Shown here in pieces: positions 42,193-64,000 of a stretch of 64,000 bases of DNA. The stretch comes from an uncultured Alphaproteobacteria bacterium (GTDB taxonomy: Bacteria; Pseudomonadota; Alphaproteobacteria; RF32; CAG-239), in the NCBI GenBank assembly GCA_944392235.1, contig CALXVZ010000005.1, positions 3,903-67,902 on the forward strand, in the 5' to 3' direction. Position numbers and translations under genes: made by a program. A model generated the notes under the pieces. It saw only the letters and a program-made list of their open reading frames with translations, had not been told where the DNA came from and made no database searches. The stretch's first letter is position 1. The number at the start of each line of letters is the position of its first letter.

Positions 42193-42909
42193 ATGATGAA
42201 AAGAATAATGATAGTCGCTGTATGCTTTAGTTTTTTGAGTATTCAAGAAGCATATGCTGTGTTTGATATAATGGCGGCAATTCAGTCGAAACTTGAGTTG
42301 TATAAAGATGTTGAAAATAAAGTGCAAGAAATGCAAAAAAAAATATCAGATATAAGAAAGAGAGCAACACAAGGATTCGAAATAGCCAGTAATTGTTTTA
42401 AAAATCCGACAAAATGTGATTTGAATGCAATAACAACATTTACCAAAGATTCAAAAAGTTTCGTTCAAAATAACATAAAAGAAATTCGCGTTATGCCTAA
42501 TAGTATTGAAAGCCAAGAACTTGTAGAGACTAAAGATGAAGAGTTAACGAATGCTGTTGACGAATCATACATATACACACGCAGAAAAGGTGAAGATATC
42601 GAAAGAACAAATAAAAACAGGAAAGACATTAATGCAGTGATTATAGATGACGTAGCGATAGCTTTTGCCAAAGGAGTCGCTACAAAACAAAGTATATATC
42701 AAGAGACAGGAGATTTGTATCAATATGATTTTAAAAATAAAAACATAGATGAAATATTACATGCCCAAAATATAGTAACTTTAGCAACCCAACAACGTTT
42801 AAATAGAATACTAGAGCTAAAGGCCTATCAAATAAGCGCTCAAGAAACAGCCGATTTAACAAGACAATCACATGATGATACGTCTGATTTAGGCAATGAA
42901 GGAGACTAG
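42193..42909 (+). CDS. Secreted VirB5/TrbJ-like protein (array member 3, 238 aa)
   Basis: Signal peptide ending AYA, then VFDIMAAI...coiled coil; size typical of VirB5. Confidence 0.6.
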   Translation: MMKRIMIVAVCFSFLSIQEAYAVFDIMAAIQSKLELYKDVENKVQEMQKKISDIRKRATQGFEIASNCFKNPTKCDLNAITTFTKDSKSFVQNNIKEIRVMPNSIESQELVETKDEELTNAVDESYIYTRRKGEDIERTNKNRKDINAVIIDDVAIAFAKGVATKQSIYQETGDLYQYDFKNKNIDEILHAQNIVTLATQQRLNRILELKAYQISAQETADLTRQSHDDTSDLGNEGD

Positions 42910-42912
42910 ACT

Positions 42913-44226: not shown

Positions 44227-44238
44227 AAGACGGAGGAT

Positions 44239-47200: not shown

Positions 47201-49635
47201 CTAAAGCTCAGACAGAGATAGATTCTGCAGAAACAATGATGGAAACTTTGCAAGAAGATATAAACACTAAAAAAGAAGAAATAGAAAAATCGGCAGAAAC
47301 ATTTGCTAAAAAATATTTAGAAGAAGCAGAAAAAGGATATGTAGAAATAGAAGAGGCAAATAAAAAATTTGAAAATAAGCTAGAAGCTAAAGAAGACGGA
47401 TCAGAACCAGATAGAATGGAAAGTATCAAGAGAGGATATTATCCTAGTTCGACAGGATTACCGATTACAGAAGAAGATAAAAAATATGAATATGATAAAG
47501 ATAATTTAAGCTGGACAATGGCCAGAGTAATGTTCGGTGGAGGAACAGAAAATTCAGATTCATCAGTCCAGAATGAACTGCCAAAAATCGTAAAAGATAC
47601 GATGGATGATAGATGGTTTACTGGAGAGCAATGGAAATCAGATGCGGCAGCAAAATTAAAAAATGTTGGTGTAGTTAAAAATTTTGTTATAGCGGAGGGT
47701 GCTTTAGAAAAGTATGGCATATCAGATGCCACCTATACTCCTGAAACACTAGCACTTGCTCTTAAAGATGAAAGTGTAGAGCAAGCGGCCAATTTATTAG
47801 CTGGTTACATCAAAAACGCAGATGAGATTGTGGATGACGAAATAAAAGCAGCTACAGAAGAAGTCGATTATTTTAGAAAAGAATTAAAAATAACAGGAGA
47901 AGATGGGGAAGAACCAGATGCTTCAATTTATGAAAGAAATAACTATGCGAATGACAATACAGTATGCGAAGAGGATATGTCAGAACTTCCAGAAATTACC
48001 CAGAAACATTGCCAACTAATTAAAAAATTAAGTGAAGCAAAAAATAAGGAAGAATTGGAAGGTGCCGAAATTAAATTAACAGAAAGTTTTGGTATTCCGA
48101 ATCCTATTAAAACAGATGATAATTACTTTGTAGGCTTACCTGCAAGAGGAACCTATGATAATCCAATCCCAAGTTATGGCCTAGAAGTAGGTGAAATGCC
48201 TCAAATGGTAGAAGATTTAATTGATCGTAATGATGAAAATGCCGGAAGAGACTTTATGGCTCCGCATAAACCAATGGTAAATTTACCGCCACTAAGAGAG
48301 ATATTCTATTTCAGTGCCCAAGATTATGTAGATGTTCCTAAATATATAGATGCGGATAAACTAGAAAAACCATCAAAATCAACCTTGGTAGATAAAAAAT
48401 TCAAGGGAACATATAATGAGGTTGAATATTTGCCCGAAATATGGAGATACTTATTGGCAACACCAAACTTAAGAGGCGATGAATTGTATCAGCATACATT
48501 TGTTGAGAGAGCATATGATAATAGTAAATTAAAAGATATGCTTGAGAGAGGGTTAAGTAGCGATAATTATACAACAATTATATCACGAGCAGGAGTATAT
48601 CCATGTAAACTTGGCGGTGTGATTATTGATATAAAAGGCAAAAATAATGATGTCAACGCTATAAAATTTAGGAAAAGAACTGCTGGTGTTGAAAGCGGAT
48701 ATGATGTTCCAACTTGTCAAGATATTGAATTATATGGAACTGGAGTTCGTCACTTACTTGCCGACCATGATAGTATTAACGATTCTAAATCAAAAGCAAT
48801 AGAGAAAAATATTTCTACAATGAATGATGGAATGTTTAGTGAAGTAAGTGAATTAGCATTATTCCTAAACAAATCATTCCAATATAGAGGTGTATTAGGA
48901 AATATGTATAAATATCTGCTAAAGAAAGAAAATGCAGAAAATGACATTAAGCGTCAAAAAATAGATTTAGCGACATATAAGCGGAATTTAATTGGTTCAT
49001 TCTTAGATTCAGTAAATGCCGAGCATAATGCAGAAAAAACAATGAATGAAAACGAAAAAGATGTAGAAGATGCATTAAAAAGTTTATGCACACAACTTCA
49101 TAATTTTGGCGAGTCAGTAGATGGAGAAAGCTGTGAAGATAAAAATGATACAGGTTGCCCGAATAAAATTGCTGAAAGTTGTGCTATATATATTATGAAA
49201 AATGGCGGATTAGCAAGTAGTGCAGAGGATGACAATTACAACGTTGATTGTAAAAAACAAAAGAGAACATCTTACTATGATGAAATTTTCTGTAAACTTG
49301 ATGAGTTGAAAGATAACACAATTGAAGAAGCAAAATTCGGTTATAGAGAAGGCGAGGAAGAAATAAAAGGATTTGAGTCTGTAAAAAATATGACAGGTAA
49401 TGATAAAGCTCAAGAGCGTATTCAAAGAATAAATAATTATTTGGAAGCTTTTGATGCAGATAAAGAAGAGGTTTCGGTAATAACACCGGATAGCACTGCA
49501 GACAAAGTCAAAGAAGCTGTAAAAGAGGCTGAAGCAAATCAAAAAGCATCACGAGCCGCCGAAGAAGAAGGTATCAAATCCATGGACAATCAAAGTCGAG
49601 CAACGGCATACGCTCCTGTGATGAAGGAGAAATAA
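44239..49635 (+). CDS. Giant secreted Cys-rich and coiled-coil protein (array member 5, 1798 aa); candidate adhesin
   Basis: Signal peptide ending AKA, then ...EIDIPGNA...AIYRQLQTIQ; Cys clusters; long heptad stretch; no polytopic TM domain. Confidence 0.6.
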   Translation: MQMKKGLRLLQSIVLGVLILGCNAYNAKAFFLIPPMPWDVEIDIPGNANKIVSNAQAIYRQLQTIQSELNTNKLEAIKKGIDFALEFTENPEGETKKAPGKSNPELKNNETLKITKNGMDEKENFDAFHKLFVVYPLEKQYNSKHYNAVKMAFKRKGIEYKQDMVMETYMTGRMTEDFLRVVETTIERLDRCQKGEEKNNCKFFGMQMSDVNPNQSEEDLDPENPDNGGQYAEMMNAYIVSVVYDKLMRIVEDLVATETIFTSARQLDIIQQIEQDKQSSAEEYINREYQFAYSENQSYTYAKGTPIVAKDYQRSEVCQNGGGENCPELNKEQAKLKNVDDSAILGALQPIEAKIDEALQLHNLKASLGEYKSQYRKYLKAKEIHERLLKVLEESDKSVVNFMNKYGDGKGVSIWYGGSKPNKVNNHEARDGVSKEVIEEYQKYTTDTLIGTSGECSGYYETCPDGYKADTENPCKENPNMFPCIVDTVTSDMDSETPAISYNQTEIPQDFTNEAERNKREYNDTDFLKDGTDADRIEIENRIKAEKSWRIGANKIMELTNNGVLQFSPWNDQMDFQAEYMRNKYRNIRMIIQAIDKGMMSYRIATGLAEDEKNVGPIEFVLPAVTSCKLTTDATEDAYRDFCSGYSGKNCTESSGKKTCIGTKIVTCNSAGEPITDTVICRVEGDNSTGYINGAIISTKCPGYYKTKKYDQRIISKDGGCRFTKAKSVYTVLETNDNCPGEWDFRVSSLVKKYMPAVLGSWKSDGSYEQICKMNDLDVQTKHLRKQTYEAGRRVASDDFQNVLEVRKNVEESLIKLIMNYDNEQKQLKRELENIIKTRSDFANKLSDATDEKNEAVELRQEALRRVSSITTQIAELEARVKALQDQLNTTEDENTKILLEKEINSIEKGMSTFTSEQKNEIKNPTRAQEIGQIPALKEERNYICYKANTNKYEECKGFNEKEITEDLYANNEDNKFFPISELEANIAKAQTEIDSAETMMETLQEDINTKKEEIEKSAETFAKKYLEEAEKGYVEIEEANKKFENKLEAKEDGSEPDRMESIKRGYYPSSTGLPITEEDKKYEYDKDNLSWTMARVMFGGGTENSDSSVQNELPKIVKDTMDDRWFTGEQWKSDAAAKLKNVGVVKNFVIAEGALEKYGISDATYTPETLALALKDESVEQAANLLAGYIKNADEIVDDEIKAATEEVDYFRKELKITGEDGEEPDASIYERNNYANDNTVCEEDMSELPEITQKHCQLIKKLSEAKNKEELEGAEIKLTESFGIPNPIKTDDNYFVGLPARGTYDNPIPSYGLEVGEMPQMVEDLIDRNDENAGRDFMAPHKPMVNLPPLREIFYFSAQDYVDVPKYIDADKLEKPSKSTLVDKKFKGTYNEVEYLPEIWRYLLATPNLRGDELYQHTFVERAYDNSKLKDMLERGLSSDNYTTIISRAGVYPCKLGGVIIDIKGKNNDVNAIKFRKRTAGVESGYDVPTCQDIELYGTGVRHLLADHDSINDSKSKAIEKNISTMNDGMFSEVSELALFLNKSFQYRGVLGNMYKYLLKKENAENDIKRQKIDLATYKRNLIGSFLDSVNAEHNAEKTMNENEKDVEDALKSLCTQLHNFGESVDGESCEDKNDTGCPNKIAESCAIYIMKNGGLASSAEDDNYNVDCKKQKRTSYYDEIFCKLDELKDNTIEEAKFGYREGEEEIKGFESVKNMTGNDKAQERIQRINNYLEAFDADKEEVSVITPDSTADKVKEAVKEAEANQKASRAAEEEGIKSMDNQSRATAYAPVMKEK

Positions 49636-51518: not shown

Positions 51519-53486
51519 ATGAAGAGAACATTAAAAATATTATCAATAGCAATATTAGCACTTGGATTTTGTATAATAGAAGCAAGGGCTCAGGTAACGA
51601 AAAATAGTTTAGATCAAAATGCTGACCAAAGTCAGGGAAATTACGCTGCAACAAATTTAAATTATTTAGGGGGCGTTGGGTCTCTTGGAATGATGCAAAG
51701 TGCATGGAAAGATCCTTTGCAACATATGGGAGAAGGTCAAAGTCGACCAGGTTATACAAAATATTATTGGACACCGGAATTGGTATTGCCAGTACGTGTA
51801 AGAGAGGGAATGTATACATTGATAAATTTTCCAAATTGGGAAGTGATAGAGAATGTATATATTGGTGACGGTCAATCATTTAATGCAGAAATACAAGGTC
51901 CATCAAGTTTAATGGTGTATCCGGATTCATCACAATTTGTGGGAGTAGATACAAATATGATTGTATTTGGTCGTTCTGGCAATAAATATGTTTTCTATGT
52001 TCAAAGTGAAACAGTTAATACCGATAGAATAACAAATGCAATTATAGATATTGAAGTAGTAAAGAGAAAAGGTGGTATAAATGGCTCTGGTTCTATAGGA
52101 AATAGCGGAAATGGACATGTAAATGCAAGTACGTATGAAACAGGCGGAACAAGCGTGGATTCAACATTTACAAGGGATTTGCAAAGAGAGGATTGGATTG
52201 AAAAAATCCCCGTTGATCCAACTAAATTTAGGTTTGATATTGAAGTATATGTTCCAAATCCAGATGACATTGTAATAGCACCGGAGAGAGTATGGAGAGA
52301 TAATATATTTACTTATATAGACTTAGGAGATAAAGCCCTAACAGCAGTTCAAAGACCGATAGTAACTTTGATAGTAGAACGTTCAGAAACTCCTGTCGGT
52401 TTTAGAACAGCCGGCCCAAACAATAGATTGATTATTGTTGAGGGAATGGGAGACATGGTTTTGCGTAGCGGCAAAAGAATTGTATGTTTAAAATTAAGAA
52501 GAGCAGATTCGGATGGTCTTGAAAATGCAGTCTATGCAAAAACAAATGAATGGGATTTGCAGGCTCAAGATAGAAATCTTTCAAAAGAAAATTATGAAGA
52601 TGTATACAATGCTCCTAAAGACGATTCTGAAGGAACAGCAGAAAAAAAATCATTCTTTGAAAGCAATTCTTTCTTTAATTCGAAAGGAAGTGATAACTTC
52701 CAGCAAAGAGAACAGAACTCAGATATGAGTTATGAACAGATGATAAGTGATGGAAAGAATACTGCAACAGCTCCACAAACAGAAAAGTCACAGCAAATTG
52801 AAAATAAACAGCAAATTGAAGCAAAAAATAAGATAAAGGAGGCTAATGAAACTGCTTTAGAAATCTTAGAGAGTTTACCGAAGGCGAAGACTATTGTGGC
52901 ACCGGAAACACCTAAAATTCCTCAACAAGAAAAGCCACAAATCGAAGGACAAATTGATATAAAATCGGATAGAGCAGAATTGATTAGCCCTATATATAAT
53001 AATCAACAAGAAAAAATAAGTGTAAATAATCAACAAGAAAAAAGTTCACAAAATTCATCGTCTCCAAATATCACCACTAATACAATAGGAAATTCAAATA
53101 ATAATTCTAATCCTATATTAATTAGTCCAAAAGATGGAAATATAAATAGAAACAAAGCTATTTCATCAGAAACAGAAGCATTGCTACAAGAATTTAAGGA
53201 TGGTAGAGCTTTTTCCCAAACAAAAGGAGATAGTATATCAATAGAATTAGGAACAGATAAAGACATAAATAATCTTGAAAAATTATGGAATGGCATATCA
53301 AAAAATTATTCAGCAACACTAGGAAAATATCAGCCCTTTTATTCAGTAGATACACCTGCTGATGGTCAGGGAAAAGAAGTATTTCATCTTCGTGTTGGCC
53401 CTATACAATCATTAGAAGAAGGTGATAATATATGCAGTCAATTAGGTCGTAATGGTATATTTTGTAGTGTGGTTAGGATACAATGA
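51519..53486 (+). CDS. virB9: VirB9/TrbG-family protein with C-terminal SPOR domain
   Basis: Signal peptide; V.VREGMYTLI.F...E.I..V.IGD, DTNMIV, FDIE, VWRDNIFTYI; C-terminal IELG...LW......FHLRVGPI.S......C.QL...G..C.VV SPOR pattern. Confidence 0.8.
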   Translation: MKRTLKILSIAILALGFCIIEARAQVTKNSLDQNADQSQGNYAATNLNYLGGVGSLGMMQSAWKDPLQHMGEGQSRPGYTKYYWTPELVLPVRVREGMYTLINFPNWEVIENVYIGDGQSFNAEIQGPSSLMVYPDSSQFVGVDTNMIVFGRSGNKYVFYVQSETVNTDRITNAIIDIEVVKRKGGINGSGSIGNSGNGHVNASTYETGGTSVDSTFTRDLQREDWIEKIPVDPTKFRFDIEVYVPNPDDIVIAPERVWRDNIFTYIDLGDKALTAVQRPIVTLIVERSETPVGFRTAGPNNRLIIVEGMGDMVLRSGKRIVCLKLRRADSDGLENAVYAKTNEWDLQAQDRNLSKENYEDVYNAPKDDSEGTAEKKSFFESNSFFNSKGSDNFQQREQNSDMSYEQMISDGKNTATAPQTEKSQQIENKQQIEAKNKIKEANETALEILESLPKAKTIVAPETPKIPQQEKPQIEGQIDIKSDRAELISPIYNNQQEKISVNNQQEKSSQNSSSPNITTNTIGNSNNNSNPILISPKDGNINRNKAISSETEALLQEFKDGRAFSQTKGDSISIELGTDKDINNLEKLWNGISKNYSATLGKYQPFYSVDTPADGQGKEVFHLRVGPIQSLEEGDNICSQLGRNGIFCSVVRIQ

Positions 53487-56400
53487 ACGAAAATACGCGT
53501 TTTGAGGAATATGAAAAGAAAACAAGAAAAATAATTCTAATAATAGGAATTATTCTATTTTTCTTATTTTTGATTGGATTGCAATTAAATTCTTCAGACG
53601 GAGAAATATATAATCCAGAAGAAAATACACCAGATTTTGTAGAAAATCAAAATATACTACCAGAAATTAATTCAGAAACCCCCCCGTTATTTATAGATAC
53701 GGAAAATTCAGAAATTGGAAATAAAAATAAGCCGATAAAAATAACTCCATCTCAAATAAATATGAATAAATTTATATTAGGGGTAGATACGCAGAATCAA
53801 AGCATTTTGACAATAGGAACAGATGGAAGCGAGAGTATTCATATTGAAAGAGTAGAATTAGTTGAAGAAATGGAAGATGGATTTGAGCTTCGTGATAAAT
53901 GTAGAAACAGAGATTTACGCGGAGACGAGACTTGTAATATTTTAATAAATTGGAATCCTCATTTACCGGGAAATGTTCAAAACAACATTAAGATAACATG
54001 GTATGAAACAAGATTAGATAAATCGAGTGTAAAATCCGAAGAAATCAGTGTAAAAGGAAGTGCATTATATCCAGAAGCAAACTATCAAATATGTGAGGAT
54101 GGCACAAATTGCTCAGTTGGAACAATGAAAGAGAGTGCACATCGTCTAGCAATAGGTCCAAATGGAGAAATAATAGGTTATATAGATGAAGCTGGTAATG
54201 TGCACGATAAAGACGGAAAAATAATAGGACGTGTAAATGAAGATGGATTAATTGTAGATGCCAATGGTAATATCATTGGAGTAGCCCAAAATATGAAATT
54301 AGCCTATGATAAAGATGGTAATATAATGGGGTATGTAAAAACAGATGGATCCGTAGTAGATTTGCAAGGGGAGGTAATAGGCAGAGCCCTTGCTGATGGA
54401 ACAATTGTGAACAGTAAAGGAGAAATAATAGGAAAAGCCGTAGAAGCAGGATTTGTATATGATAAAAATGGAAAAATAATAGGAAGAGTATTACCTGATG
54501 GAACAGTCGTTGATATAAATGATTCGCAAAAAATCATAGGTCGCCTAAACGAAAATGGAGACGTTGTTGATGCAGAAGGTAATATAATTGGTAAGGTAAC
54601 ATCATCAGGAAACATTGTTGTAGATGAAAATGGCAATTTACTTGGAGTAGTAATGCCAGATAATAGTGTTGTAGATAAAGATGGCAATGTAATAGGATAT
54701 GTTGATGAAGAAGGAAATGTATATAAAGTTGCAAGTGAAAAAATCGGAAGTAATGGAGAAAGTAGAAAGATTGTATATGATAAAGAGGGGAAAGCAATAG
54801 GTTATATTGATGAGAATGGTAAGATAGTCAAATTTACAAAAGGAAAGAATGCCCCCCAAATAATAGGAAAGGTCGGAGCAAGCCACAGACTAGCTTTAGA
54901 TAAAGATGGCAATGTAATAGGATATATTGATAAAGATGGAACAGTAAAAGACTTTAATGGAAATATTATCGGAAAAGCAGATAAAGATGGAAACATCAGA
55001 GATAAAGATGGTAATATAATAGGAAAAGCCGGAGCGTATAGTAAATTAGCATTAGATAAAGATGGTAAAGTTATTGGTTATATCGATGAGCAAGGACGTG
55101 TCTTTGATCATAATGGTAAGCAAATAGGAACAGTTGATGAAAATGGAAATATAATAGCTCTAGATGATTCTGAAAATAGCGGGGATAAAAAAAGAGTAGC
55201 TATGGGTGTAGATGGTAAACCCATAGGATACATAGATGATGATGGCAATGTTATAGATTATGAAGGAAACATAATTGGAAAGCTAAACGAAAAAGGCGAA
55301 ATAATTGATCAGAATGGTAATGTTATCGGAAAAGCGGGGGCATACGAAACCGTAGCTTATGATAAAAATGGTAAAATCATTGGTTTTGTAGATGATAAAG
55401 GCGGAGTAATAGGAAAAGATGGTAAACTCATAGGTTACATTGATGATAAAGGTCAAATAATAGGACTAAGTGAAGATATATTAGGGCGAGCAGGAAGATT
55501 TGCAGAAATTGTCTATGATAAAAATAATAAATTTATTGGATACATAGAAAAAGACGGAACAGCAAAAGGCTGTGGTGGAATTATTATTGGTAAAAAAGAT
55601 AAAGAAGGAAATGTGAGAAATAATGAAGGGGAGATAATAGGCAAAGTTGGTGAGGTAAAAGAGCTGGCTTTTAACGAAAAAGGTTTATTGATAGGTTACG
55701 TTGATGAAAAGAAAAGAATAATTGATTGCAGTAACAAAATTGCAGGAATTGTAGATAATAAAGGTAATGTAATCGCAAGTAGCGGAGAAAAATTAGGAAC
55801 AGCAGGAAATTATAAAAGATTAGCCTATGATAAAGATGGAAAAGTCATAGGATACATAACTTCAGACGGAACCGTAAAAGATTTTAAAGGAAATTTAATC
55901 GGAAAGATGCTCGAAGATGGAACCGTTTTAGATAAGAATGGTAATATAATCGGACAAGCCGGTGAATATGAGCAAATGGCTGTAGATAAAGACGGTAATA
56001 TAATAGGATATGTTGACGAAGAAGGACGTGTCGTTGATGAAAATGGTAAGTTAATAGGTTTCATTGATGAAGATGGAAATGTCATAAAAGCTGGGGATAA
56101 AATAATAGGTAGAACATGTGCAGAAAGGAAAATTGTCGAGAATAAAAAAGGTGAAATTATTGGATATTTGGATAAAAACGACATCGTAAAAAATTTTAGC
56201 GATAGAATAATAGGACATAATAAAAAAGGCGATGTTTTAGATAATAAAGGACTACTAATAGGAAGTGTGAAAGAAAAGAAGAATATCGCACTACTAAAAA
56301 ATGGGAAAGTAATTGGATACATTGATGAAGAAAACAATGTTCGAGGAGATAATGCAGAAATAATAGGCATTATAAACGAAAAAGGAGAGGTTCTTTCTAT

Positions 56401-59400
56401 TAAAACAAATATAATAGGGAAATTATCTTCTGACAATATTACAGTATACGACTTAGGTGAAAATACTATAGGCACAATGAAAAATAATAGAATAGCCTAT
56501 AATAAAGAAGGAAAAATAATAGGATATATTAATAAAGAAGGTGCGCTATTAGCTTCAGGAGAGATAATATGCACAGCTTGTAAGACTGCATTAATTGGAT
56601 ATAATAAAAATAGTCAAGAGATTGGATATGTTGATGAAAATGGCAATATCTTAAATAGAAGTGAAATAAAAGGAAAAATAGATGAAAAAGGAAATATAAA
56701 AGATAAAGAAGATAAAATTTTAGGCAAGGCAGAAGAAAAGAAGAATTTAGGATATAGCCTTGAAGGGAACATAATTGGATATGTGTATAAAAATAATATA
56801 GTGAAAGATTTCGATGGAAAAATAATAGGTTATGTAGATGAATACGGTAACATATTGAATAATACGGAAGAACAAATAGGAAGTGTCGGTCAATATGGAA
56901 AGCTAGCTTTAGACAAGGATGGAAATGTTATCGGCTATGTCGATAAAGATGGGAATGTATATGATTTTAATGGAAAGTTAATAGGAAAGGCGACAGAAGA
57001 TGGTCGTATATTAGATGAATATGGTCGAGAAATTGGTGAAGTAGGAGATTCGAACGCTTTAGCAGTTAATAAAGACGGTAAGGTAATAGGATACATTGGT
57101 AAAGATGGTCGAATATACAAAGAAAATGGAGAGATTGCAGGCTTTTTAGACGATGAAGGTAATGTAATAGGTGTAACAGATGAAATTATAGGAAAAGTAG
57201 GTCAAGTAAAAAAATTAGCCCTAGATAAAGAAGGTAATATAATAGGTTATATAGATGAAGATGGAACAGTAAAAGATTTTGATGGCAATTTAATAGGCTA
57301 TTTAAATGAAGACGGCACCATAAATGATATAAATGGCAATATAATAGGGAAAGCAGGAGAACTGACAAAAGTTGTTGTCGATGAAAATGGTAATACTGTA
57401 GGCTATACTGACGAACAAGGGCGCGTTATTGGAAAAGATGGAGAAGTAATAGGCTTTGTCGGAGAGGATGGCATAGCATACAAGAGCACAGGTGAGGTGA
57501 TAGGTCGACTTGCAGAACAGGGAGATAGCACATTAAGTGTAGTAGGAAGACAAGGTATAATCGATGAAAATAATAATACAATTGGCTACGTTGATGAAAA
57601 TGGAATGGCTCGAGATTTGAATGGTAACATAATAGGAAGAGTGCAATCAGATGGTAGCGTTATAGATGAAACAGGAAAGATTATTGGAAAGGTTGGTGAA
57701 TTTGTTGACTTTACAATGGATGAAAATGGTAAAGTAGTAGGAAAAGTAGGAGATTACGCAAATCTTGCCGTAGATGAAATAGGCAACGTAATAGGTTATG
57801 TTGGAAAGGATGGAAAAGTATATAATGCAGAAGGGATAGTTATAGGCTACATTGATGAGAATGGTAATGTCATCAGCTCAAGAGGTATAAAAATAGGAGC
57901 TGTTATAAATAAAGATATGATAGCACTATCACCAAATGGTTATAGTCTTGGCACAATAAATAACAGAGGCGAAATAATCAATAATAAAGGTCAAGTAATA
58001 GGAAAGACCTTACCTAATAGTCTAATAAGATCAGTTGAGGGAAATAGAATAATAGGAAAGACGGTTATTGGAGGATTAGCAATAGGTTGGGGCTGTCAAC
58101 AATACGGATATATAGATAAAGATGGAAGAGTCAAAAAAGAAGGAAAAGATATTGGATATAGAATGCTTTTTGATGGCAGTATAGTTGATAAAGATGGAGA
58201 ATATAAAGGAGACGTTCTAAAGACGGGTATAGTTAGAGATAGTAAATGTAACATAATAGGAAGAGCTGGAAATGATGGATTTGTTCGAACAGATAATGGA
58301 CAATACATTGGATGTGTAAATCCAGATGGTGGAGTATTAGACCAAAATGGACAATTAATAGGTAAAGTCCATACACCAACGTATGCATTATATTATAATG
58401 GTGAGATGATGGGGAGTGTAAGCTCAAATGGTTTAATAAAATCAGGCCAAGAGACACTTGGGTGTGCAAATTTAGAAGGAGAAGTTCTTAACAAAGATGG
58501 CTTTATTATTGGCCACATAATGGATAAGAAACAAGCATTTGACACAGAGGGGAATTTTATTAATAAGCTATCAATAAACAATTACGATAACACAGAAGTA
58601 ATTCCAAATACAAAAATTTTATTTAATAAATTGCTGGTCAATTCAAAACAAGAAGTAAAAGGCATAATTTTACCGGAAAAAAATATCATAGTCGATTCTA
58701 ATGGAGAAGTTATAGGTCATCTATTTGCAGATGGATATGTGTATAATCAACAAGGTATAGCAGAAGATAAATTTATTTATGAGGGTAATTCATTTTATAA
58801 TAAAAAGGCCGGACGTATTTTGCCTAAAGGAAATGTTGTAGATTTCAATGGTAATTATTTGGGATTTGTAAGCGATAACGGTAAAGTCATTGATTATTTA
58901 GGCACAGAATACGGACATATAGATGTAAAAGGAAGAATGTTTGATTCTCAGGGAACATACAAGGGAGGCATTGTAAAAACAGGAGTTGGAATAGGATATG
59001 ATGGGTCATATCTTGGATATGTTAGCAAAAGTGGAAAGGTTATAGATGTAGATGGAAATACAAGTGGGGTAGTTAGTTCAGAAGGTCATATATTAGATAA
59101 AAACAAACAGATTATAGGTGAAGTAATTTCAGAGGATTTTGTCATTGATATACAAGGAAATATACAAGGATATGTGAATGCATTAGGCGATATAATAGAT
59201 AAAGAAAATAAGATAGTAACAACAGTATTACCAGGGGGAGCATCTAATAAAAATTATAGTCTAATAAAGAAAGGTATTATACTTAATTATTCAGGAAAAG
59301 TAATTGGTCAAGTTGTCTCGGATGGAAATGTCATATCAACAAATAATGAGAAAATAGGAAAGATATTAGTGACAGGACGAGCAGTTAACAATAAAGGAAT

Positions 59401-59758
59401 TTTATTAGGAGAAATAGTGGACAGCGATATAGTAATCAATGACGAAGATAAAGTTATAGGTATAATAAATGCAGAAGGAGAAGTAATAGACGCTGATAAA
59501 AAAATCATAGGAAAAATGATATCATCAAATTTAGTTGTAGATAACAATGGAAAAATAATGGGACATGGATATAAGATTGGTGCTAATATATTAGGGAATG
59601 ATGGTAAATTTTTAGGACGATTATCAGCAAATGGAAGCGTTTTAAATTTAACAAATGGACGAATAGGATATCTAAAGAGTAATGGCTCTTTTGTAAATAT
59701 TCAAAATAAGGTAGCAGGGTATGTGCTTGAAGAAGCAGCACAAAATCGGAGGAATTAA
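53483..59758 (+). CDS. 2091-aa membrane-anchored protein: N-terminal TM, Ig-like domain, about 100 17-aa beta-hairpin-type repeats
   Basis: ORF track; TM at about aa 16-35; C..L.G..TCNI.I.W.P..PG Ig-like pattern; repeat xVxDxxGxIIGxVxxDG. Confidence 0.85.
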   Translation: MNENTRFEEYEKKTRKIILIIGIILFFLFLIGLQLNSSDGEIYNPEENTPDFVENQNILPEINSETPPLFIDTENSEIGNKNKPIKITPSQINMNKFILGVDTQNQSILTIGTDGSESIHIERVELVEEMEDGFELRDKCRNRDLRGDETCNILINWNPHLPGNVQNNIKITWYETRLDKSSVKSEEISVKGSALYPEANYQICEDGTNCSVGTMKESAHRLAIGPNGEIIGYIDEAGNVHDKDGKIIGRVNEDGLIVDANGNIIGVAQNMKLAYDKDGNIMGYVKTDGSVVDLQGEVIGRALADGTIVNSKGEIIGKAVEAGFVYDKNGKIIGRVLPDGTVVDINDSQKIIGRLNENGDVVDAEGNIIGKVTSSGNIVVDENGNLLGVVMPDNSVVDKDGNVIGYVDEEGNVYKVASEKIGSNGESRKIVYDKEGKAIGYIDENGKIVKFTKGKNAPQIIGKVGASHRLALDKDGNVIGYIDKDGTVKDFNGNIIGKADKDGNIRDKDGNIIGKAGAYSKLALDKDGKVIGYIDEQGRVFDHNGKQIGTVDENGNIIALDDSENSGDKKRVAMGVDGKPIGYIDDDGNVIDYEGNIIGKLNEKGEIIDQNGNVIGKAGAYETVAYDKNGKIIGFVDDKGGVIGKDGKLIGYIDDKGQIIGLSEDILGRAGRFAEIVYDKNNKFIGYIEKDGTAKGCGGIIIGKKDKEGNVRNNEGEIIGKVGEVKELAFNEKGLLIGYVDEKKRIIDCSNKIAGIVDNKGNVIASSGEKLGTAGNYKRLAYDKDGKVIGYITSDGTVKDFKGNLIGKMLEDGTVLDKNGNIIGQAGEYEQMAVDKDGNIIGYVDEEGRVVDENGKLIGFIDEDGNVIKAGDKIIGRTCAERKIVENKKGEIIGYLDKNDIVKNFSDRIIGHNKKGDVLDNKGLLIGSVKEKKNIALLKNGKVIGYIDEENNVRGDNAEIIGIINEKGEVLSIKTNIIGKLSSDNITVYDLGENTIGTMKNNRIAYNKEGKIIGYINKEGALLASGEIICTACKTALIGYNKNSQEIGYVDENGNILNRSEIKGKIDEKGNIKDKEDKILGKAEEKKNLGYSLEGNIIGYVYKNNIVKDFDGKIIGYVDEYGNILNNTEEQIGSVGQYGKLALDKDGNVIGYVDKDGNVYDFNGKLIGKATEDGRILDEYGREIGEVGDSNALAVNKDGKVIGYIGKDGRIYKENGEIAGFLDDEGNVIGVTDEIIGKVGQVKKLALDKEGNIIGYIDEDGTVKDFDGNLIGYLNEDGTINDINGNIIGKAGELTKVVVDENGNTVGYTDEQGRVIGKDGEVIGFVGEDGIAYKSTGEVIGRLAEQGDSTLSVVGRQGIIDENNNTIGYVDENGMARDLNGNIIGRVQSDGSVIDETGKIIGKVGEFVDFTMDENGKVVGKVGDYANLAVDEIGNVIGYVGKDGKVYNAEGIVIGYIDENGNVISSRGIKIGAVINKDMIALSPNGYSLGTINNRGEIINNKGQVIGKTLPNSLIRSVEGNRIIGKTVIGGLAIGWGCQQYGYIDKDGRVKKEGKDIGYRMLFDGSIVDKDGEYKGDVLKTGIVRDSKCNIIGRAGNDGFVRTDNGQYIGCVNPDGGVLDQNGQLIGKVHTPTYALYYNGEMMGSVSSNGLIKSGQETLGCANLEGEVLNKDGFIIGHIMDKKQAFDTEGNFINKLSINNYDNTEVIPNTKILFNKLLVNSKQEVKGIILPEKNIIVDSNGEVIGHLFADGYVYNQQGIAEDKFIYEGNSFYNKKAGRILPKGNVVDFNGNYLGFVSDNGKVIDYLGTEYGHIDVKGRMFDSQGTYKGGIVKTGVGIGYDGSYLGYVSKSGKVIDVDGNTSGVVSSEGHILDKNKQIIGEVISEDFVIDIQGNIQGYVNALGDIIDKENKIVTTVLPGGASNKNYSLIKKGIILNYSGKVIGQVVSDGNVISTNNEKIGKILVTGRAVNNKGILLGEIVDSDIVINDEDKVIGIINAEGEVIDADKKIIGKMISSNLVVDNNGKIMGHGYKIGANILGNDGKFLGRLSANGSVLNLTNGRIGYLKSNGSFVNIQNKVAGYVLEEAAQNRRN
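54140..59740 (+). repeat. Coding tandem repeat, about 51 nt / 17 aa period (xVxDxxGxIIGxVxxDG; DUF3659-like by recollection)
   Basis: e.g. LAIGPNGEIIGYIDEAG NVHDKDGKIIGRVNEDG LIVDANGNIIGVAQNMK LAYDKDGNIMGYVKTDG; degenerate at the DNA level. Confidence 0.85.
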
Positions 59759-59759: not shown

Positions 59760-62700
59760 TTGCAAAGAGTAAGATTAAAAATAAAAAATATAACTAAACT
59801 AGTATTGCTTTTAATAATAATAAGCCTAAAAGCGATAGCCGCCGATATTAGTGCTCTTAATTTTAATGGAGATTTAATAGGAAAAGTAATACCGGATGGA
59901 ACAGTCGTAAACGAAAATAATGAAGTTATTGGCTATATGACTGCAGATGGTCTGATTTATGATAATCAGAAAGAATTAATAGGCGGTGTAATTCCGCAAG
60001 GGATGGCTATATCAAATAACAATAAAATACTTGGAAAAATTAATAATGATGGTTCTGTGACATCGATAAATAATGCATTAGTCGGCAAGGTGTTACCCAA
60101 TGGATTAGTTGTAAATGATAGTTATGATGTTCTAGGAGCTGTAATACCAACAGGTCTTGTCTATAATGATTTAGGTTTAGTAGTAGGAAGAGTATCAGGA
60201 GATGGTAAATATTATAATTTAACAGGCGAAAATAATGGCTTTGTAACAGTAAACGGAGATGTTTATGGATATCAAGGTGTAGATGGACAGATAGCATTAA
60301 TAGGAAAATTAATTTCATCAAAGATAGTTCTTTCATCAACAGGAAAATTTATAGGAAGTTTAGCACCTGATGGAAAGGTTATTAATAATCAAAAGAAAAT
60401 GCTAGGTAAAATACATGCAAATGGGTATGTATTTAATGAAGAAGGTAATGCTATAGGAAAAGTAGTAAAAGAAGGATATGCATTCAATAATAATGGAGCT
60501 TATATTGGTATTGTTAGCTATAATGGAGATATCATAAATAAAGGGATAATAATAGCCAAAGCTATTTCTGGAAATAGAGTTATAAATAAGGAAGGTCAGC
60601 GCATTGGTTTTACACTAAGTTCAATGACGACTGCAAATAATTTAAAAGGGGAATATTTAGGAAGACTATCTGCAAAAGGAGAGATTTTAAGAAAAAGAAA
60701 TGTAGTAGGAAAGATTGGAGCGAATGGTAATATTGTAAATGAAAAAGGAGAGTTAATAGGAACTATAAATTATGCAGGACCTATATTTGACTACCTTGGA
60801 AATTTAAAAGCAAATGCGTCAATAAATGGAAAGGTATATTCCTTAGAAGGTATAGAAGTAGGACTAATAAGAGAAAAAGAAGGATTTGATAATGCAGGAA
60901 AAGTTATCGGCTCTTTATTAGATGAAAGTGTATGTTTCAATAACACAAATGAATTTATAGGTATAAGTGGAATAGGAACAAAGCTTGAAAAAAATGGAAA
61001 AATATATAAAATATCACCTAATGGGTATGTTTTTGATGAAAAAGGCACAATTGGCGGTGGAACAGTAAAATTTGGAGAAATATACACAGCAGAAGGCACG
61101 CCACTAACTTACATATCTGATAATGGAAATACAGAAACATCTAGTTTAAATGAAATAGCTAAAATAACAAATGGCGGACTATATATAGATAAAAATAATA
61201 AGTTATTAGGAAAGCAAATACAAGGCAAATATGTTACAAATTTTGCAGGCGAAACGCAAGGATATACAGGAAAATCGAATTTTGTAGTAAATGATGAAAA
61301 CAAAGTATATGGCAAAATACTACCTAATAATGATGTTGTAGGAATATCAGAACGTTTCTCACAAAATTATGGTAAAGCAGATAACAAAAATTTAAGTATA
61401 AGCATAAATGGAGACTATCTAGGTTCAAGCACTCTAGAAGGAAAGATTGTTAATGGGAATGAAATCGTAGGTAAAATAAGCTCTAACGGATATGTTGTAG
61501 ATAATACAGGAGCCCTATACGGAAAAACAGTAAACTATGGTAGTATAATTTCACCAAAATGCGAAGTTTTAGGAGTTGTATCTGATAATGGGGAAGGAAG
61601 GACTTCGCAGGGAGCATATCTGGGAATGATATTGGCAAATAAACAAGTTCTTTCAGACACAGAAACTTTAGTAGGGTATGTGGTAGAGCCACAGGTAATA
61701 AACGGAAAAGAAGGAAAAGTTATTGGAATAAGTAGTCCTATAGGTAATACTCTAACGTATAATAATGAAAATTTAGGATGTATAGATTGGCAGGGTAAAG
61801 TAAGAAACTCACAAGGAGAAATCGTAGGACAAACAATACCATCCATGTCAATAATGGGCTATGATAATAAAATTGTTGGATACACAACTTTTGGTGGAAA
61901 AATTATAGACAATTCTGGATTAGAAATTGGTTATATGGATATCAATGGAGAAATAAAGTCAAAAGACGGAAAAAATATTGGGGTTCCTTTTCTATATACA
62001 GTAGCCTTTGATTTTAATAATACATATCTAGGGCGTATAAACACAGAGGGACAAGTAGTATCGGACCAAGGAGTAATACTCGGAAATACACAGTATAATG
62101 GATTAGTTAAAAGTTCGAACGGAAATATAGGATATGCTTTATATGATTTATATGTATATGATAATGAAGGAAAAACAATAGGATATATATCAAAAAATGG
62201 AAAGGTTTATAGTATTTTAGGAGAAATACAAGGAACAATCTATCAGGGTTTTGTTTTAGATAAGAAACAAAACCTCATAGGAAGAGGATTACGCGATTAT
62301 AATATAAGAGATAAACAATATAATATAATCGGAGAATTGAAATTAGATGGTAGAGTAATAAATATCCAAAATATAGAAGTAGGTAAATTAGGTGAAGATG
62401 GTCAAATATTAAATGCAAGAGGAGAAGTGATAGCAATAGCAGAAAAGTTGCAATACTATCAAAAACCCAAAATTGTAGCACCAAAATCAGAAGTAGAGAT
62501 ACAAGAAAAAAAGAAAGATAATATAACAGATACAGAGATAAGAACTGAAGAAGCTAAAGAAACTAAAGAAACAGAAGAAAACAATACACTTGCTGAAAAA
62601 AAGGAAGAAGTAATAACACCTGCAGAACAAATAAGAGATAGTGAAAAAGTAATAGGAATAGCTGTAACACCGGGTGGACGCTATATTGGAGATATATATA

Positions 62701-64000
62701 GCGACAATAGTGTAATAGATGAAGAAGGAAAAATTATAGGAAAAAAGAATGAAAAAGGAGAGATTATAGATAACAAAGGACAAAATATAGGGATAATTGA
62801 GCAGAAAGAATATCAAACAACCAAAGATATTAATCCTAATAGACGAGCACAAATTTCAGCTGGAACAACAATTGATCCATATAATATAGGTAATTCAATC
62901 ACAAATGTAGGTCCTGGAGGAGGTATAGGTCCAGGAGGAAGATATAATCCACGTCGAGCAGCAATTTTATCGCAATTACAAGAAGAGCGCCGGAGGACAA
63001 TGGTCGCAGCAAAAATAAATCCAGGTTATGATGCGGCATCATACACAGGATGGCAAGACAATTGGGGAATTGGGCGAACCATATCAACATTACGAGTAAA
63101 CATGGATAATATGATAACAGGAGATAAACCAATACCTGCAGTTTTAGCAAGGTCATTAATATCATTAGGAGAAGCCCCTGTTACAGCAATAGTTGAGCGG
63201 AATATCTATGGGGATTCTGGACGTAATGTTATTATACCTGCAGGAAGTAGGATAATCGGGGGGTTACAAGCAGCTGAAGGCCGATCCAGATTTGATGGAA
63301 CGAGTGGTGGTGTAAAAATGGATATAGCCTGGGAAAGGATAATCCGCCCTGATGGAATAGCCTTTTTGTTATCGCCAGGAAGAACAAGAACTGGTGATGC
63401 ACAAGGACGAGGAGGCGGAGCTCTAGGATATGTGGATGAACAGTTGGTGAAAAAATATACACTTCCAATAGTTGGCACAATGGTTGCATCCGCAGTAACA
63501 TATATGATGGCTGCAGATGAAGATAGCACGGGAGAGGTGGAAACATCAAAGCAACAAGCAGCATCAGATGCAAGACAACAATTCATGGAGAAAATGGATC
63601 AAATATTACAAGAAATTATAGATAGTAAGTCGCAAATTGAACCTGTAACATTTATTCCTGCGGGCACAAGGGTAATTATATATCCTATGCAAGATTTATG
63701 GCTGAGAAGTACAAAAGAAATAGAAAAAGGAATAAGCGCTACCGGTATAGATGGAGGAAGAGGTGGCCTAGTTAATGAGACATATTATGGATCTGGCGGT
63801 GGAACAACTACTATCGACGGTAACAATAGTCAAGGCAGTCAAAAGGTTATACTTGGCAACCAAGGGCAAAACACAAATTCAAATGAAGGTGGTGGAACCC
63901 CATTGATAAATGAAGGACCTTCAAATAATCAACCTCAAAAGCCAAATAAAAATATAGGAGCAATTCCTCCTCCAACAGCTGATGGAACGGAGATACAAGA
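59760..64000 (+). CDS. virB10: Giant VirB10/TrbI-family protein (at least 1413 aa, 3' truncated) with about 50 N-terminal 17-aa repeats
   Basis: Manual translation: GGAGG RBS, TTG 59760, no stop to window end. Core at about 63100-63704: MITGDKPIPAVL...VTAIVERNIYG..GRNVIIPAGSRIIG, IAWERIIRPDG, DAQGRGG..GYVD, IEPVTFIPAGTRVIIYPMQDL. Confidence 0.9.
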   Translation, partial: MQRVRLKIKNITKLVLLLIIISLKAIAADISALNFNGDLIGKVIPDGTVVNENNEVIGYMTADGLIYDNQKELIGGVIPQGMAISNNNKILGKINNDGSVTSINNALVGKVLPNGLVVNDSYDVLGAVIPTGLVYNDLGLVVGRVSGDGKYYNLTGENNGFVTVNGDVYGYQGVDGQIALIGKLISSKIVLSSTGKFIGSLAPDGKVINNQKKMLGKIHANGYVFNEEGNAIGKVVKEGYAFNNNGAYIGIVSYNGDIINKGIIIAKAISGNRVINKEGQRIGFTLSSMTTANNLKGEYLGRLSAKGEILRKRNVVGKIGANGNIVNEKGELIGTINYAGPIFDYLGNLKANASINGKVYSLEGIEVGLIREKEGFDNAGKVIGSLLDESVCFNNTNEFIGISGIGTKLEKNGKIYKISPNGYVFDEKGTIGGGTVKFGEIYTAEGTPLTYISDNGNTETSSLNEIAKITNGGLYIDKNNKLLGKQIQGKYVTNFAGETQGYTGKSNFVVNDENKVYGKILPNNDVVGISERFSQNYGKADNKNLSISINGDYLGSSTLEGKIVNGNEIVGKISSNGYVVDNTGALYGKTVNYGSIISPKCEVLGVVSDNGEGRTSQGAYLGMILANKQVLSDTETLVGYVVEPQVINGKEGKVIGISSPIGNTLTYNNENLGCIDWQGKVRNSQGEIVGQTIPSMSIMGYDNKIVGYTTFGGKIIDNSGLEIGYMDINGEIKSKDGKNIGVPFLYTVAFDFNNTYLGRINTEGQVVSDQGVILGNTQYNGLVKSSNGNIGYALYDLYVYDNEGKTIGYISKNGKVYSILGEIQGTIYQGFVLDKKQNLIGRGLRDYNIRDKQYNIIGELKLDGRVINIQNIEVGKLGEDGQILNARGEVIAIAEKLQYYQKPKIVAPKSEVEIQEKKKDNITDTEIRTEEAKETKETEENNTLAEKKEEVITPAEQIRDSEKVIGIAVTPGGRYIGDIYSDNSVIDEEGKIIGKKNEKGEIIDNKGQNIGIIEQKEYQTTKDINPNRRAQISAGTTIDPYNIGNSITNVGPGGGIGPGGRYNPRRAAILSQLQEERRRTMVAAKINPGYDAASYTGWQDNWGIGRTISTLRVNMDNMITGDKPIPAVLARSLISLGEAPVTAIVERNIYGDSGRNVIIPAGSRIIGGLQAAEGRSRFDGTSGGVKMDIAWERIIRPDGIAFLLSPGRTRTGDAQGRGGGALGYVDEQLVKKYTLPIVGTMVASAVTYMMAADEDSTGEVETSKQQAASDARQQFMEKMDQILQEIIDSKSQIEPVTFIPAGTRVIIYPMQDLWLRSTKEIEKGISATGIDGGRGGLVNETYYGSGGGTTTIDGNNSQGSQKVILGNQGQNTNSNEGGGTPLINEGPSNNQPQKPNKNIGAIPPPTADGTEIQ
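59840..62450 (+). repeat. 17-aa coding repeats within virB10
   Basis: SALNFNGDLIGKVIPDG TVVNENNEVIGYMTADG LIYDNQKELIGGVIPQG MAISNNNKILGKINNDG..., the same unit as the upstream giant protein but more divergent. Confidence 0.8.

What the first reader, a model, noticed from the sequence alone, without database searches (positions are those of the whole stretch)
53483..59758. 2091-aa inner-membrane protein with Ig-like domain and about 100 beta-hairpin repeats between virB9 and virB10
Seen: short cytoplasmic N-terminus, TM, an ASH/choice-of-anchor-D-like Ig pattern (about 53735-54080), then a 17-aa repeat xVxDxxGxIIGxVxxDG often grouped in threes starting LA(L/Y)DKDG, with scattered Cys. Known: no canonical VirB1-11 subunit has this architecture; the Dot/Icm VirB10 analogue DotG is elongated by a different (pentapeptide) repeat. 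Inference: this is a new T4SS accessory, either a periplasmic spacer or scaffold or a tethered fibre.
Basis: partly seen in the sequence, partly recalled or inferred. Interest (0 to 1): 0.75.

Follow-up and report, generated by a model that had tools for sequence, protein, structure and literature searches.

The report
Front half of split giant VirB10
The 2091-residue repeat protein is the inner-membrane-anchored front half of an enormously enlarged VirB10, the type IV secretion subunit that normally links the two membranes as one chain; in this clade of uncultured gut bacteria evolution cut it into two coupled genes.

Summary
ORF 53483-59758 encodes 2091 aa: a short cytoplasmic tail, one TM helix, an ASH/PapD-like Ig domain (residues 85-195), then about 108 hairpin repeats of 17 aa with a 52-aa super-period. 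The repeats match Pfam beta-flower families (PF21785, E 1e-126).

The reading "new T4SS accessory" is only partly right. The same tail-TM-Ig-repeat module forms the N-terminus of single-chain giant VirB10 proteins (1273-2831 aa, ending in the TrbI barrel) in 11 other alphaproteobacterial genomes. All of these genes lie between virB9 and virB11. In one clade (tree support 100/99, one change of state) that gene is cut in two. This ORF is the front half.

It ends ...QNRRN-stop, and the CGG-AGG codons supply the Shine-Dalgarno site for the back half. The back half starts at TTG 59760 with a Sec signal peptide, then about 900 aa of the same repeat, a charged linker and TrbI.

The split and its junction are kept in all 22 complete orthologues. 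Size changes come in 52/104-aa blocks. AlphaFold2 gives confident ~104-aa all-beta modules with no PDB match.

I infer that the two halves re-associate in the periplasm. I found no description of this in the papers searched. Earlier notes of this scan reached the same reading in other genomes.

The parts
51519..53486 (+). virB9 (655 aa) with a C-terminal SPOR domain. Its stop overlaps the start of the N-half (ATGA).
   Evidence: Pfam CagX 5.4e-13, SPOR 1.6e-3; ORF coordinates. The same VirB9+SPOR combination occurs in G027.
53483..59758 (+). N-half of the split giant VirB10 (2091 aa): the finding itself.
   Evidence: Collinear BLASTP from residue 5 to the N-terminus of the fused 1273-aa VirB10 of G027, E 7e-127.
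53483..53593 (+). Cytoplasmic tail (conserved T-x-F-E-E-Y-E-K-K-T) and single TM helix; N-in topology by the positive-inside rule.
   Evidence: Invariant T5, Y10, K13, T14 in alignment A1, which includes the fused VirB10. AF2 helix 6-37.
53735..54067 (+). ASH/PapD-like Ig domain (residues 85-195) with an invariant Cys pair (C140, C151) and a GN-x-QNN motif.
   Evidence: AF2 pLDDT 65-83. Foldseek PDB hits 6fvi, 2ys4, 2e6j, 1m1s with TMt 0.61-0.76. Alignment A1.
54140..57922 (+). Canonical acidic beta-flower hairpin repeats (residues 220-1480): 17-aa unit, 52-aa super-repeat, probably ~104-aa folded modules.
   Evidence: AF2 of residues 460-667: pLDDT 91, two modules split by a low-confidence loop at 563-566. 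Indels among orthologues come in multiples of 52 aa.
57923..59737 (+). Degenerate, near-neutral 17-aa repeats (residues 1481-2085), similar in composition to the repeats of the C-half.
   Evidence: Autocorrelation peaks at lags 17/34/51 only. D+E 0.07-0.13 and pI 6.7, against pI 4.8 for residues 220-1480.
59748..59752 (+). GGAGG Shine-Dalgarno site for the C-half. It lies inside the last codons (R-R) of the N-half, 7 nt before TTG 59760. The N-half stop TAA is at 59756-59758.
   Evidence: Sequence. CGGAGGAA-stop-N-TTG/GTG is conserved in all 22 complete orthologues.
59760..64000 (+). C-half of the split VirB10 (1429 aa; ends at window-equivalent position 64049, beyond the window). It has a Sec-type signal peptide (residues 1-28, ...KAIAA|D), an invariant mature N-terminus DISALNFNGDLIGKVIPDG, about 900 aa of repeats, a K/E-rich linker, 3 repeats, the TrbI barrel domain and a low-complexity tail.
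   Evidence: Pfam TrbI 5.6e-27 and Bflower_2 5.1e-51. The database protein P0005 of 1429 aa is 100% identical over the queried region (residues 1090-1400 of P0002), and its length fits a start at TTG 59760 and the frame end. Signal peptides in orthologues. Frame end.
63114..63704 (+). TrbI/VirB10 C-terminal domain of the C-half.
   Evidence: Pfam PF03743, residues 1132-1328 of P0002, profile positions 2-188 of 188.

Best explanation
Shown:
- ORF 53483-59758 is the inner-membrane half of a VirB10 that has been enlarged and then split.
- In the ancestor, still seen in 11 other alphaproteobacterial genomes, VirB10 was one chain. Its order was: cytoplasmic tail, TM helix, ASH-like Ig domain, tens of beta-flower hairpin repeats, charged or Pro-rich linker, a few more repeats, TrbI barrel.
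- In the clade holding this genome the gene was cut once, inside the degenerate middle repeats.
- The front half keeps the anchor, the Ig domain and about 108 hairpins.
- The back half gained a Sec signal peptide. It keeps about 55 hairpins and the outer-membrane barrel.
- The two genes are translationally coupled: virB9 stop/start overlap, and an SD site inside the last codons of the front half.

Inferred:
- Both repeat arrays lie in the periplasm as chains of ~104-aa all-beta modules.
- These modules replace the short extended linker of ordinary VirB10.
- The halves bind each other non-covalently, probably through the conserved C-terminal end of the front half and the invariant mature N-terminus of the back half.
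- This would restore the link from the inner-membrane ATPases to the outer-membrane cap and build an enlarged periplasmic scaffold, as the repeats of DotG and CagY do in their expanded machines.

The confidence given (0.8) is a blend: about 0.9 for the evolutionary identity, about 0.5 for re-association of the halves.
For: 1. Homology of the N module to fused VirB10: BLASTP is collinear from residue 5, E 7e-127. Alignment A1 has 30 invariant columns, with the fused G027 protein included.
2. Domain and ORF survey of 19 genomes: 11 fused (N module plus TrbI in one ORF of 1273-2831 aa, between virB9 and virB11), 6 split, 2 cut by contig ends.
3. Tree of VirB8b+VirB9+N module+TrbI: all split genomes form one clade (100/99), the fused G027 is sister, and one change of state suffices.
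4. The junction is conserved in 22 of 22 complete orthologues: QNRRN-stop, GGAGG, TTG/GTG one nt after the stop in most (a few nt further in some), a variable signal peptide, an invariant mature N-terminus.
5. In this genome Bflower_2 occurs only in these two genes. 23 of 24 genomes of the genus hold both.
6. Synteny o437-o1798-virB8-virB8-virB9-N half-virB10 holds in 26 loci. virB11 follows.
7. The protein database holds both forms of the N module: with PF03743 (1930-2432 aa) and without it (1216-1581 aa).
8. Orthologous repeats are 46-85% identical position by position, while paralogous repeats are about 22-25% identical. The array is therefore old and each unit is individually constrained.
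9. AF2 model of residues 460-667: pLDDT 91.
Against:
- The fission point cannot be mapped onto fused proteins: the repeats align everywhere and the junction motifs are absent from fused proteins.
- Re-association of the halves is pure inference. I could not run a two-chain prediction.
Foldseek found no Tubby-like or other match (TM <= 0.2).
- The tree is a T4SS gene tree, not a species tree.
Confidence: 0.8

Rival explanations
1. After the split the front half became an independent accessory. It would be an inner-membrane-tethered periplasmic scaffold or peptidoglycan-binding spacer that positions the machine but no longer contacts the VirB10 barrel half, which would work alone as a Sec-exported outer-membrane subunit.
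For: - The C-half has its own export signal.
- VirB9 in these systems has gained a SPOR peptidoglycan-binding domain.
- Weak Foldseek similarity to choline-binding hairpin repeats (prob <= 0.12, so not evidence on its own).
Against: - Strict translational coupling.
- A conserved tail on the N-half and an invariant mature N-terminus on the C-half across genera suggest a maintained interface.
- Established knowledge holds that VirB10 needs its inner-membrane anchor to sense the ATPases (Cascales and Christie 2004, as cited in PMC12857230).
Confidence: 0.15
2. The two genes arose by tandem duplication of a whole giant virB10 followed by reciprocal loss: TrbI lost upstream, anchor plus Ig replaced by a signal peptide downstream. 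This is an alternative to a simple cut. The end state and the function are the same as in the best explanation.
For: - The summed length here (2091+1429 aa) exceeds every fused form seen (maximum 2831 aa) and is about 2.8 times the fused sister G027 (1273 aa).
- The fission point cannot be mapped.
Against: - Composition runs canonical, then degenerate, then linker, then canonical, then TrbI across N+C, as in several fused proteins.
- No remnant of TrbI at the end of the N-half and none of an Ig domain at the start of the C-half.
- Split relatives with short halves total 2682-2712 aa, within the fused range.
Confidence: 0.2
3. The repeat array is surface-exposed and variable, a CagY-like adhesin or immune-evasion module or a tethered fibre.
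For: - Giant size.
- Analogy with CagY and the proposed exposure of DotG repeats (PMC6761968; PMC2194252).
- Length differs between species by whole repeat blocks.
Against: - The N-half is held in the inner membrane by an uncleaved N-in TM helix.
- Repeats are positionally conserved between species and only 22-25% identical to each other, so there is no concerted evolution or rapid recombination.
- Most species share the same length of 2090-2093 aa.
Confidence: 0.04
4. The split is an assembly or sequencing artefact or a recent pseudogenisation, or the two frames are joined by recoding.
For: The two ORFs abut, with stop and start one nt apart.
Against: - The same junction occurs in 22 independent assemblies from humans, ruminants and other animals, with SD, start codon and signal peptide conserved.
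- It also occurs in other genera and families.
- A fused read-through would place a signal-peptide-like hydrophobic segment in the middle of a periplasmic chain.
Confidence: 0.01

Closest known systems
Canonical VirB10/TrbI (A. tumefaciens VirB10, R388 TrwE, pKM101 TraF)
   Same: - N-in cytoplasmic tail and a single TM helix.
- Gene order virB9-virB10-virB11.
- In the C-half, a full-length TrbI barrel domain.
- The fused relatives show that the whole is one VirB10.
   Different: - About 3500 aa in total.
- The extended periplasmic linker is replaced by an Ig domain plus about 160 beta-hairpin repeats.
- The chain is cut into an anchored half and a Sec-exported half, whereas VirB10 is described as the subunit that physically bridges the two membranes as one chain (PMC12857230).
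Helicobacter pylori CagY (VirB10 homologue of the Cag T4SS)
   Same: A giant VirB10 homologue whose extra mass is made of tandem repeats placed N-terminal to the conserved VirB10 domain.
   Different: - CagY is one chain.
- Its repeats are different in kind and recombine in frame to vary between strains (PMC2194252).
- Here the repeats are beta-flower hairpins that are positionally conserved, and the protein is split.
Legionella DotG (IcmE), with its partner DotF
   Same: - A VirB10-type C-terminus preceded by a variable block of repeats that forms part of an expanded machine.
- A separate bitopic inner-membrane partner (DotF) interacts with it (PMC6761968).
   Different: - DotG uses pentapeptide repeats and keeps its own membrane anchor.
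- DotF is not derived from VirB10.
- Here the anchored partner is the former N-terminus of VirB10 itself.
Beta-flower fold families PF21784/PF21785 (clan CL0395) and DUF3659
   Same: - Strong Pfam matches.
- A [DNEQ]xxG motif at the hairpin tips.
- Small all-beta modules without a PDB relative (PMC10584680).
   Different: - The described beta-flowers are single ~96-116-aa domains, some of them lipoproteins, of unknown function.
- Here about 18 plus 9 modules are strung together inside a core T4SS subunit.
ASH / PapD-like / MSP Ig domains
   Same: Fold-level match of residues 85-195 (TMt 0.61-0.76).
   Different: The Pfam ASH match in an orthologue is below the cut-off, and there is no match for the window protein itself. 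The role of the domain next to the inner membrane is unknown.

Membership tests
VirB10/TrbI family (PF03743) | C-terminal TrbI beta-barrel domain | tested here: not met
   There is no PF03743 hit in the 2091-aa protein. The domain lies in the next gene. By itself this ORF is therefore not a Pfam VirB10 member; it is a fragment of one.
VirB10/TrbI family (PF03743) | N-terminal cytoplasmic tail and a single TM helix (bitopic, N-in) | tested here: met
   AF2 helix 6-37, K/R before the helix. The module aligns with the N-terminus of the fused VirB10.
VirB10/TrbI family (PF03743) | Orthology of the N-terminal part to full-length VirB10 proteins, and a gene position between virB9 and virB11 | tested here: met
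   11 fused proteins carry the same N module plus TrbI. Synteny. Single-fission tree.
VirB10/TrbI family (PF03743) | Physical bridge between the inner-membrane complex and the outer-membrane core; energy sensing | not testable with these tools
   This needs biochemistry or cryo-ET. It is only inferred here.
Beta-flower (PF21785 Bflower_2, PF21784 Bflower; DUF3659) | Profile match above the curated cut-off | tested here: met
   415 bits against a cut-off of 38; 256 against 25; 167 against 24.8.
Beta-flower (PF21785 Bflower_2, PF21784 Bflower; DUF3659) | [DNEQ]xxG motif at the hairpin tips; repeat unit of one beta-hairpin | tested here: met
   Units read xVxDxxGxIIGxVxxDG. The AF2 secondary structure alternates short strands. 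The motif is described in PMC10584680.
Beta-flower (PF21785 Bflower_2, PF21784 Bflower; DUF3659) | Closed shallow barrel with 4-, 5- or 6-fold petals | tested here: inconclusive
   AF2 gives two confident ~104-aa modules (pLDDT 91, pTM 0.53). Coordinates are not readable, and Foldseek finds no Tubby-like barrel.
ASH/PapD-like Ig domain (PF15780) | Profile match or fold match | tested here: inconclusive
   Fold match: yes. Pfam: only the G025 orthologue matches, at 25.7 bits, below the cut-off of 27.
CagY-type variable repeat VirB10 | Repeats that recombine and vary between close strains | tested here: not met
   Eleven species share 2090-2093 aa (a twelfth has 2079). The repeats are positionally conserved. 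Differences are a few block indels at three sites.

The most novel reading that the evidence does not exclude
The signal relay of VirB10 from the inner-membrane ATPases to the outer-membrane gate can run across a non-covalent joint. The joint would form between the two halves through their beta-flower repeat ends, possibly by complementing a shared module. The roughly 27 beta-flower modules per VirB10 would build a very large periplasmic cage in the T4SS of widespread gut Alphaproteobacteria with small genomes. That would give the beta-flower fold its first functional setting and provide a natural split-protein test of how VirB10 works.
Probability: 0.45. Interest if true: 0.8.

Novelty: new variant of a known kind. 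Interest (0 to 1): 0.62.

Why it matters
- VirB10 is the hallmark envelope-spanning subunit of Gram-negative T4SSs. Its continuity from inner to outer membrane underlies current models of energy sensing and gating.
- A split that is conserved and translationally coupled across a whole clade shows that covalent continuity is dispensable, or is replaced by a repeat-mediated joint. It offers a natural system to test this.
- It adds a third, structurally different way of enlarging VirB10, beside CagY and DotG.
- It places the functionally uncharacterised beta-flower fold inside a core secretion-machine subunit.
- The carriers are small-genome, uncultured Alphaproteobacteria found in human, ruminant and other animal gut metagenomes, whose lifestyle is unknown. 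A chromosomal, origin-proximal, heavily elaborated T4SS is likely central to that lifestyle.

Tried and rejected
- The search for homologous proteins on residues 1-225 returned nothing, although DNA-level searches found 26 orthologous loci. The exact sequence is not in the protein collection. A second try on residues 85-300 worked.
- Mapping the fission point failed. BLAST of the last 300 aa of the N-half and the first 300 aa of the C-half against fused proteins hits many registers equally. Regular expressions for the conserved tail and the mature N-terminus find nothing in fused proteins.
- Foldseek of the repeat model against the PDB gave only low-probability hairpin-repeat look-alikes (Rhs, designed propellers, choline-binding repeats; TM <= 0.2) and no Tubby match.
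- The RHS_repeat, POLO_box and Bactofilin Pfam hits have no single stretch that passes on its own ('stretches 0'); I treat them as cross-matches of the hairpin repeat.
- Literature searches for split or giant VirB10, for beta-flower together with VirB10, and for the gut lineage names found no description of this protein.
- Artefact and recoding readings are rejected because the junction is conserved.
Full report
**1. What is at the coordinates**

- The frame 53483-59758 (+) is open and gives 2091 aa.
- Its ATG overlaps the stop of the preceding gene (51519-53486). That gene is VirB9 (CagX, E 5e-13) with a C-terminal SPOR domain.
- The next gene runs from 59760 past the window end. It carries a full TrbI/VirB10 domain (E 6e-27) and also Bflower_2 repeats (E 5e-51).
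- Upstream lie three virB2-type pilin candidates (one confirmed as TrbC), virB4, five ORFs without Pfam matches and two virB8 genes.
- Downstream lie virB11, then a MMR_HSR1-type GTPase gene, yidC, a RecF/SMC-type gene, dnaN and dnaA.
- virD4 is on another contig.
- The genome is a 1.29-Mb, 77%-complete MAG with about 32% G+C.

**2. Anatomy of the protein**

- Residues 1-16 are charged, with K/R just before the helix. Residues 17-35 are hydrophobic. AlphaFold2, run on an alignment of 25 orthologues, gives a helix at 6-37, disorder at 38-81 and a beta-sandwich at 85-195.
- Foldseek matches the sandwich to ASH/PapD-like, HYDIN and MSP domains, with TM-score on the target of 0.61-0.76.
- From residue 220 to about 2085 the chain is a 17-aa unit, xVxDxxGxIIGxVxxDG.
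- Pfam assigns the repeats to the beta-flower families: PF21785 1e-126, PF21784 5e-77, DUF3659 8e-50.
- These families were defined from AlphaFold models as small shallow barrels of hairpin 'petals' with a [DNEQ]xxG tip motif. They have no PDB relative and no known function (PMC10584680).
- In residues 220-1480 the units are acidic and grouped 17+17+18 = 52 aa (self-identity 0.25 at lag 52, median 0.085).
- In residues 1481-2091 the units are degenerate and near neutral, with the 17-aa period only. This resembles the repeats of the neighbouring VirB10.
- A second AF2 run on residues 460-667 gave pLDDT 91 and pTM 0.53. It shows two all-beta modules of about 104 aa separated by a low-confidence loop.
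- That model has no meaningful PDB match.
- I could not read the coordinates, so whether each module is a closed barrel remains open.

**3. What it is**

- A relative from another order (G027) has a single 1273-aa gene between virB9 and virB11.
- That gene encodes tail, TM helix, the same Ig domain, about 35 of the same repeats, an EP-rich linker, three repeats and TrbI.
- BLASTP of the window protein against it is collinear from residue 5, E 7e-127.
- A profile of the N module (alignment A1) found it in 20 of 401 genomes sampled across the class. All of these genomes are 1.1-2.5 Mb.
- I fetched 20-kb contexts and annotated them. The outcome was:
  - 11 genomes have the N module and TrbI in one ORF of 1273-2831 aa.
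  - 6 genomes have them in two adjacent ORFs: this one, three from sister genera of the family, and G133 and G185.
  - 2 genomes are cut by contig ends.
  - 1 weak hit (G176) has no recognisable virB neighbour in the 20-kb stretch fetched and was set aside.
- G025, of the same order, is also split.
- In every placed case virB8-virB8-virB9 precede the gene, and virB11 follows wherever the contig reaches that far.
- A maximum-likelihood tree of VirB8b+VirB9+N module+TrbI puts all split genomes in one clade (100/99). The fused G027 is sister, and one change of state suffices.
- The protein database likewise holds the N module both with PF03743 (1930-2432 aa) and without it (1216-1581 aa).
- It also holds at least 1124 clusters of giant TrbI proteins. 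The best 120 all carry beta-flower domains and are named at most 'TrbI/VirB10 family protein'.
- The 2091-aa ORF is therefore the N-terminal half of a fissioned, repeat-expanded VirB10, not an additional subunit.

**4. The junction**

- In the window the N-half ends CAA AAT CGG AGG AAT TAA. One base later comes TTG (59760).
- GGAGG (59748-59752) lies 7 nt before that start. This explains why the last residues, QNRRN, are nearly invariant.
- The same arrangement is present in all 22 complete orthologues.
- The C-half then has a positively charged n-region, a hydrophobic core and an AxA-type site (KAIAA|D).
- The signal peptide varies freely between species, while the mature start DISALNFNGDLIGKVIPDG is almost invariant.
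- The more distant split lineages keep the same logic.
- The database protein of 1429 aa is 100% identical over the queried TrbI region. Its length fits the TTG start at 59760 and a frame end at window-equivalent 64049.
- An artefact, a pseudogene or a recoded fusion is thus very unlikely.

**5. Evolution of the repeat array**

- In 26 loci from human, ruminant, deer, buffalo and other gut MAGs the synteny is fixed. The records are labelled Alphaproteobacteria, Rickettsiales, Rhodospirillales or Acetobacter sp.
- Complete N-halves are 1990-2516 aa. One genome of the genus has a 3153-aa frame.
- The alignment is collinear, with 46-85% identity per 50-aa window. Paralogous units within the protein are only about 22-25% identical.
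- Each unit is therefore old and individually constrained.
- Length differences are block indels of 52, 104, about 160, about 210 and 419 aa at three sites, after residues 459, 1057 and 1130. This fits a 52/104-aa structural quantum.
- This is unlike CagY, whose repeats recombine between strains (PMC2194252).

**6. How it most likely works**

Shown:
- The N-in anchor and the identity of the two halves.
- Their translational coupling.
- Separate export signals.
- A periplasmic location implied by the topology.

Inferred:
- The two repeat arrays form chains of all-beta modules in the periplasm, about 18 modules on the anchored half and about 9 on the barrel half. These counts come from dividing the repeat lengths by 104 aa.
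- They replace the short extended linker of ordinary VirB10 and build an enlarged scaffold. DotG's pentapeptide repeats (PMC6761968) and CagY's repeats play a similar part in their expanded machines.
- The halves re-associate non-covalently through the conserved ends at the junction. The link between the inner-membrane ATPases and the outer-membrane cap, which reviews treat as the defining role of VirB10 (PMC12857230), would thereby be kept.

My confidence is about 0.9 in the evolutionary identity and about 0.5 in re-association.

Rivals:
- An independent periplasmic or peptidoglycan-binding scaffold after the split. In its favour: the C-half has its own export signal, VirB9 has gained a SPOR domain, and some beta-flowers are annotated as wall-binding.
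- Origin by duplication and reciprocal loss rather than a simple cut.
- A surface-exposed variable module. Against it: the uncleaved inner-membrane anchor and the positional conservation of the repeats.
- An artefact. Against it: the conserved junction.

**7. Novelty**

- In the papers I could search there is no mention of a split or giant beta-flower VirB10.
- The beta-flower paper gives no T4SS context.
- Earlier notes of this scan, on this genome and on at least eight others, reached the same 'split giant beta-flower VirB10' reading. I derived it here independently, and I count those notes as agreement, not as evidence.
- I rate it a new variant of a known kind (VirB10), built from known parts: the TrbI barrel, beta-flower repeats and an ASH-like Ig domain.

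**8. Limits**

- No two-chain prediction could be run.
- No model coordinates were available.
- The tree is of T4SS genes only.
- The organism is known only from MAGs.

Noticed in passing
window 51519-53486; L037 11107-12600: VirB9 carries a long low-complexity linker and a C-terminal SPOR (peptidoglycan-binding) domain, both here and in the fused-VirB10 relative G027. This suggests the whole lineage of these T4SSs is tied to the cell wall.
   Followed up: partly
window 63705-64000 (continues to about 64049 outside the window): After the TrbI domain, the VirB10 half has roughly 100 aa of G/N/S/Q/P-rich low-complexity tail. This is unusual for VirB10, and its location (periplasm or surface) is unknown.
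   Followed up: no
window 38862-49635: Five consecutive ORFs (354, 730, 238, 437 and 1798 aa) between virB4 and virB8 have no significant Pfam match. They sit where virB5/virB6 would be expected. The last two are syntenic but only 29-61% identical across the genus.
   Followed up: partly
window 24653-34457 (-) and 23038-23991 (+): A type IVb-pilus-like operon (secretin, TcpQ-like protein, T2SSE ATPase) lies back to back with the T4SS locus. An extra PilT/VirB11-like T2SSE ATPase gene follows the ATP synthase genes.
   Followed up: partly
L079 (G000:C5:67000-82000): The T4SS locus ends about 8 kb from dnaN-dnaA, with yidC in between. It is therefore chromosomal and close to the likely replication origin, not on a mobile element.
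   Followed up: partly
window residues 459, 1057, 1130 of the N-half (about 54860, 56654, 56873): All large length differences between species are insertions at these three points, in multiples of 52 aa (up to 419 aa). These are hot spots for repeat-block gain.
   Followed up: yes
L075 (G185:C13) 3614-11309: In G185 the N-half is further broken into ORFs of 193 and 796 aa ahead of the 1557-aa C-half. Possible causes are decay, frameshifts in a fragmented MAG, or a second split.
   Followed up: no
protein P0086: One giant beta-flower VirB10 is labelled 'Lactobacillaceae bacterium' in NCBI, on a 392-kb contig. This is probably a mis-binned or mislabelled MAG, since the family is otherwise alphaproteobacterial.
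   Followed up: no
L078 (G176:C1) 13938-15263: A 441-aa ORF in a 2.1-Mb single-contig genome gives a weak match (E 1.5e-8) to the Ig part of the N module, and no virB homologue was recognised in the 20-kb stretch fetched around it. The ASH-like domain may therefore also occur outside VirB10.
   Followed up: no
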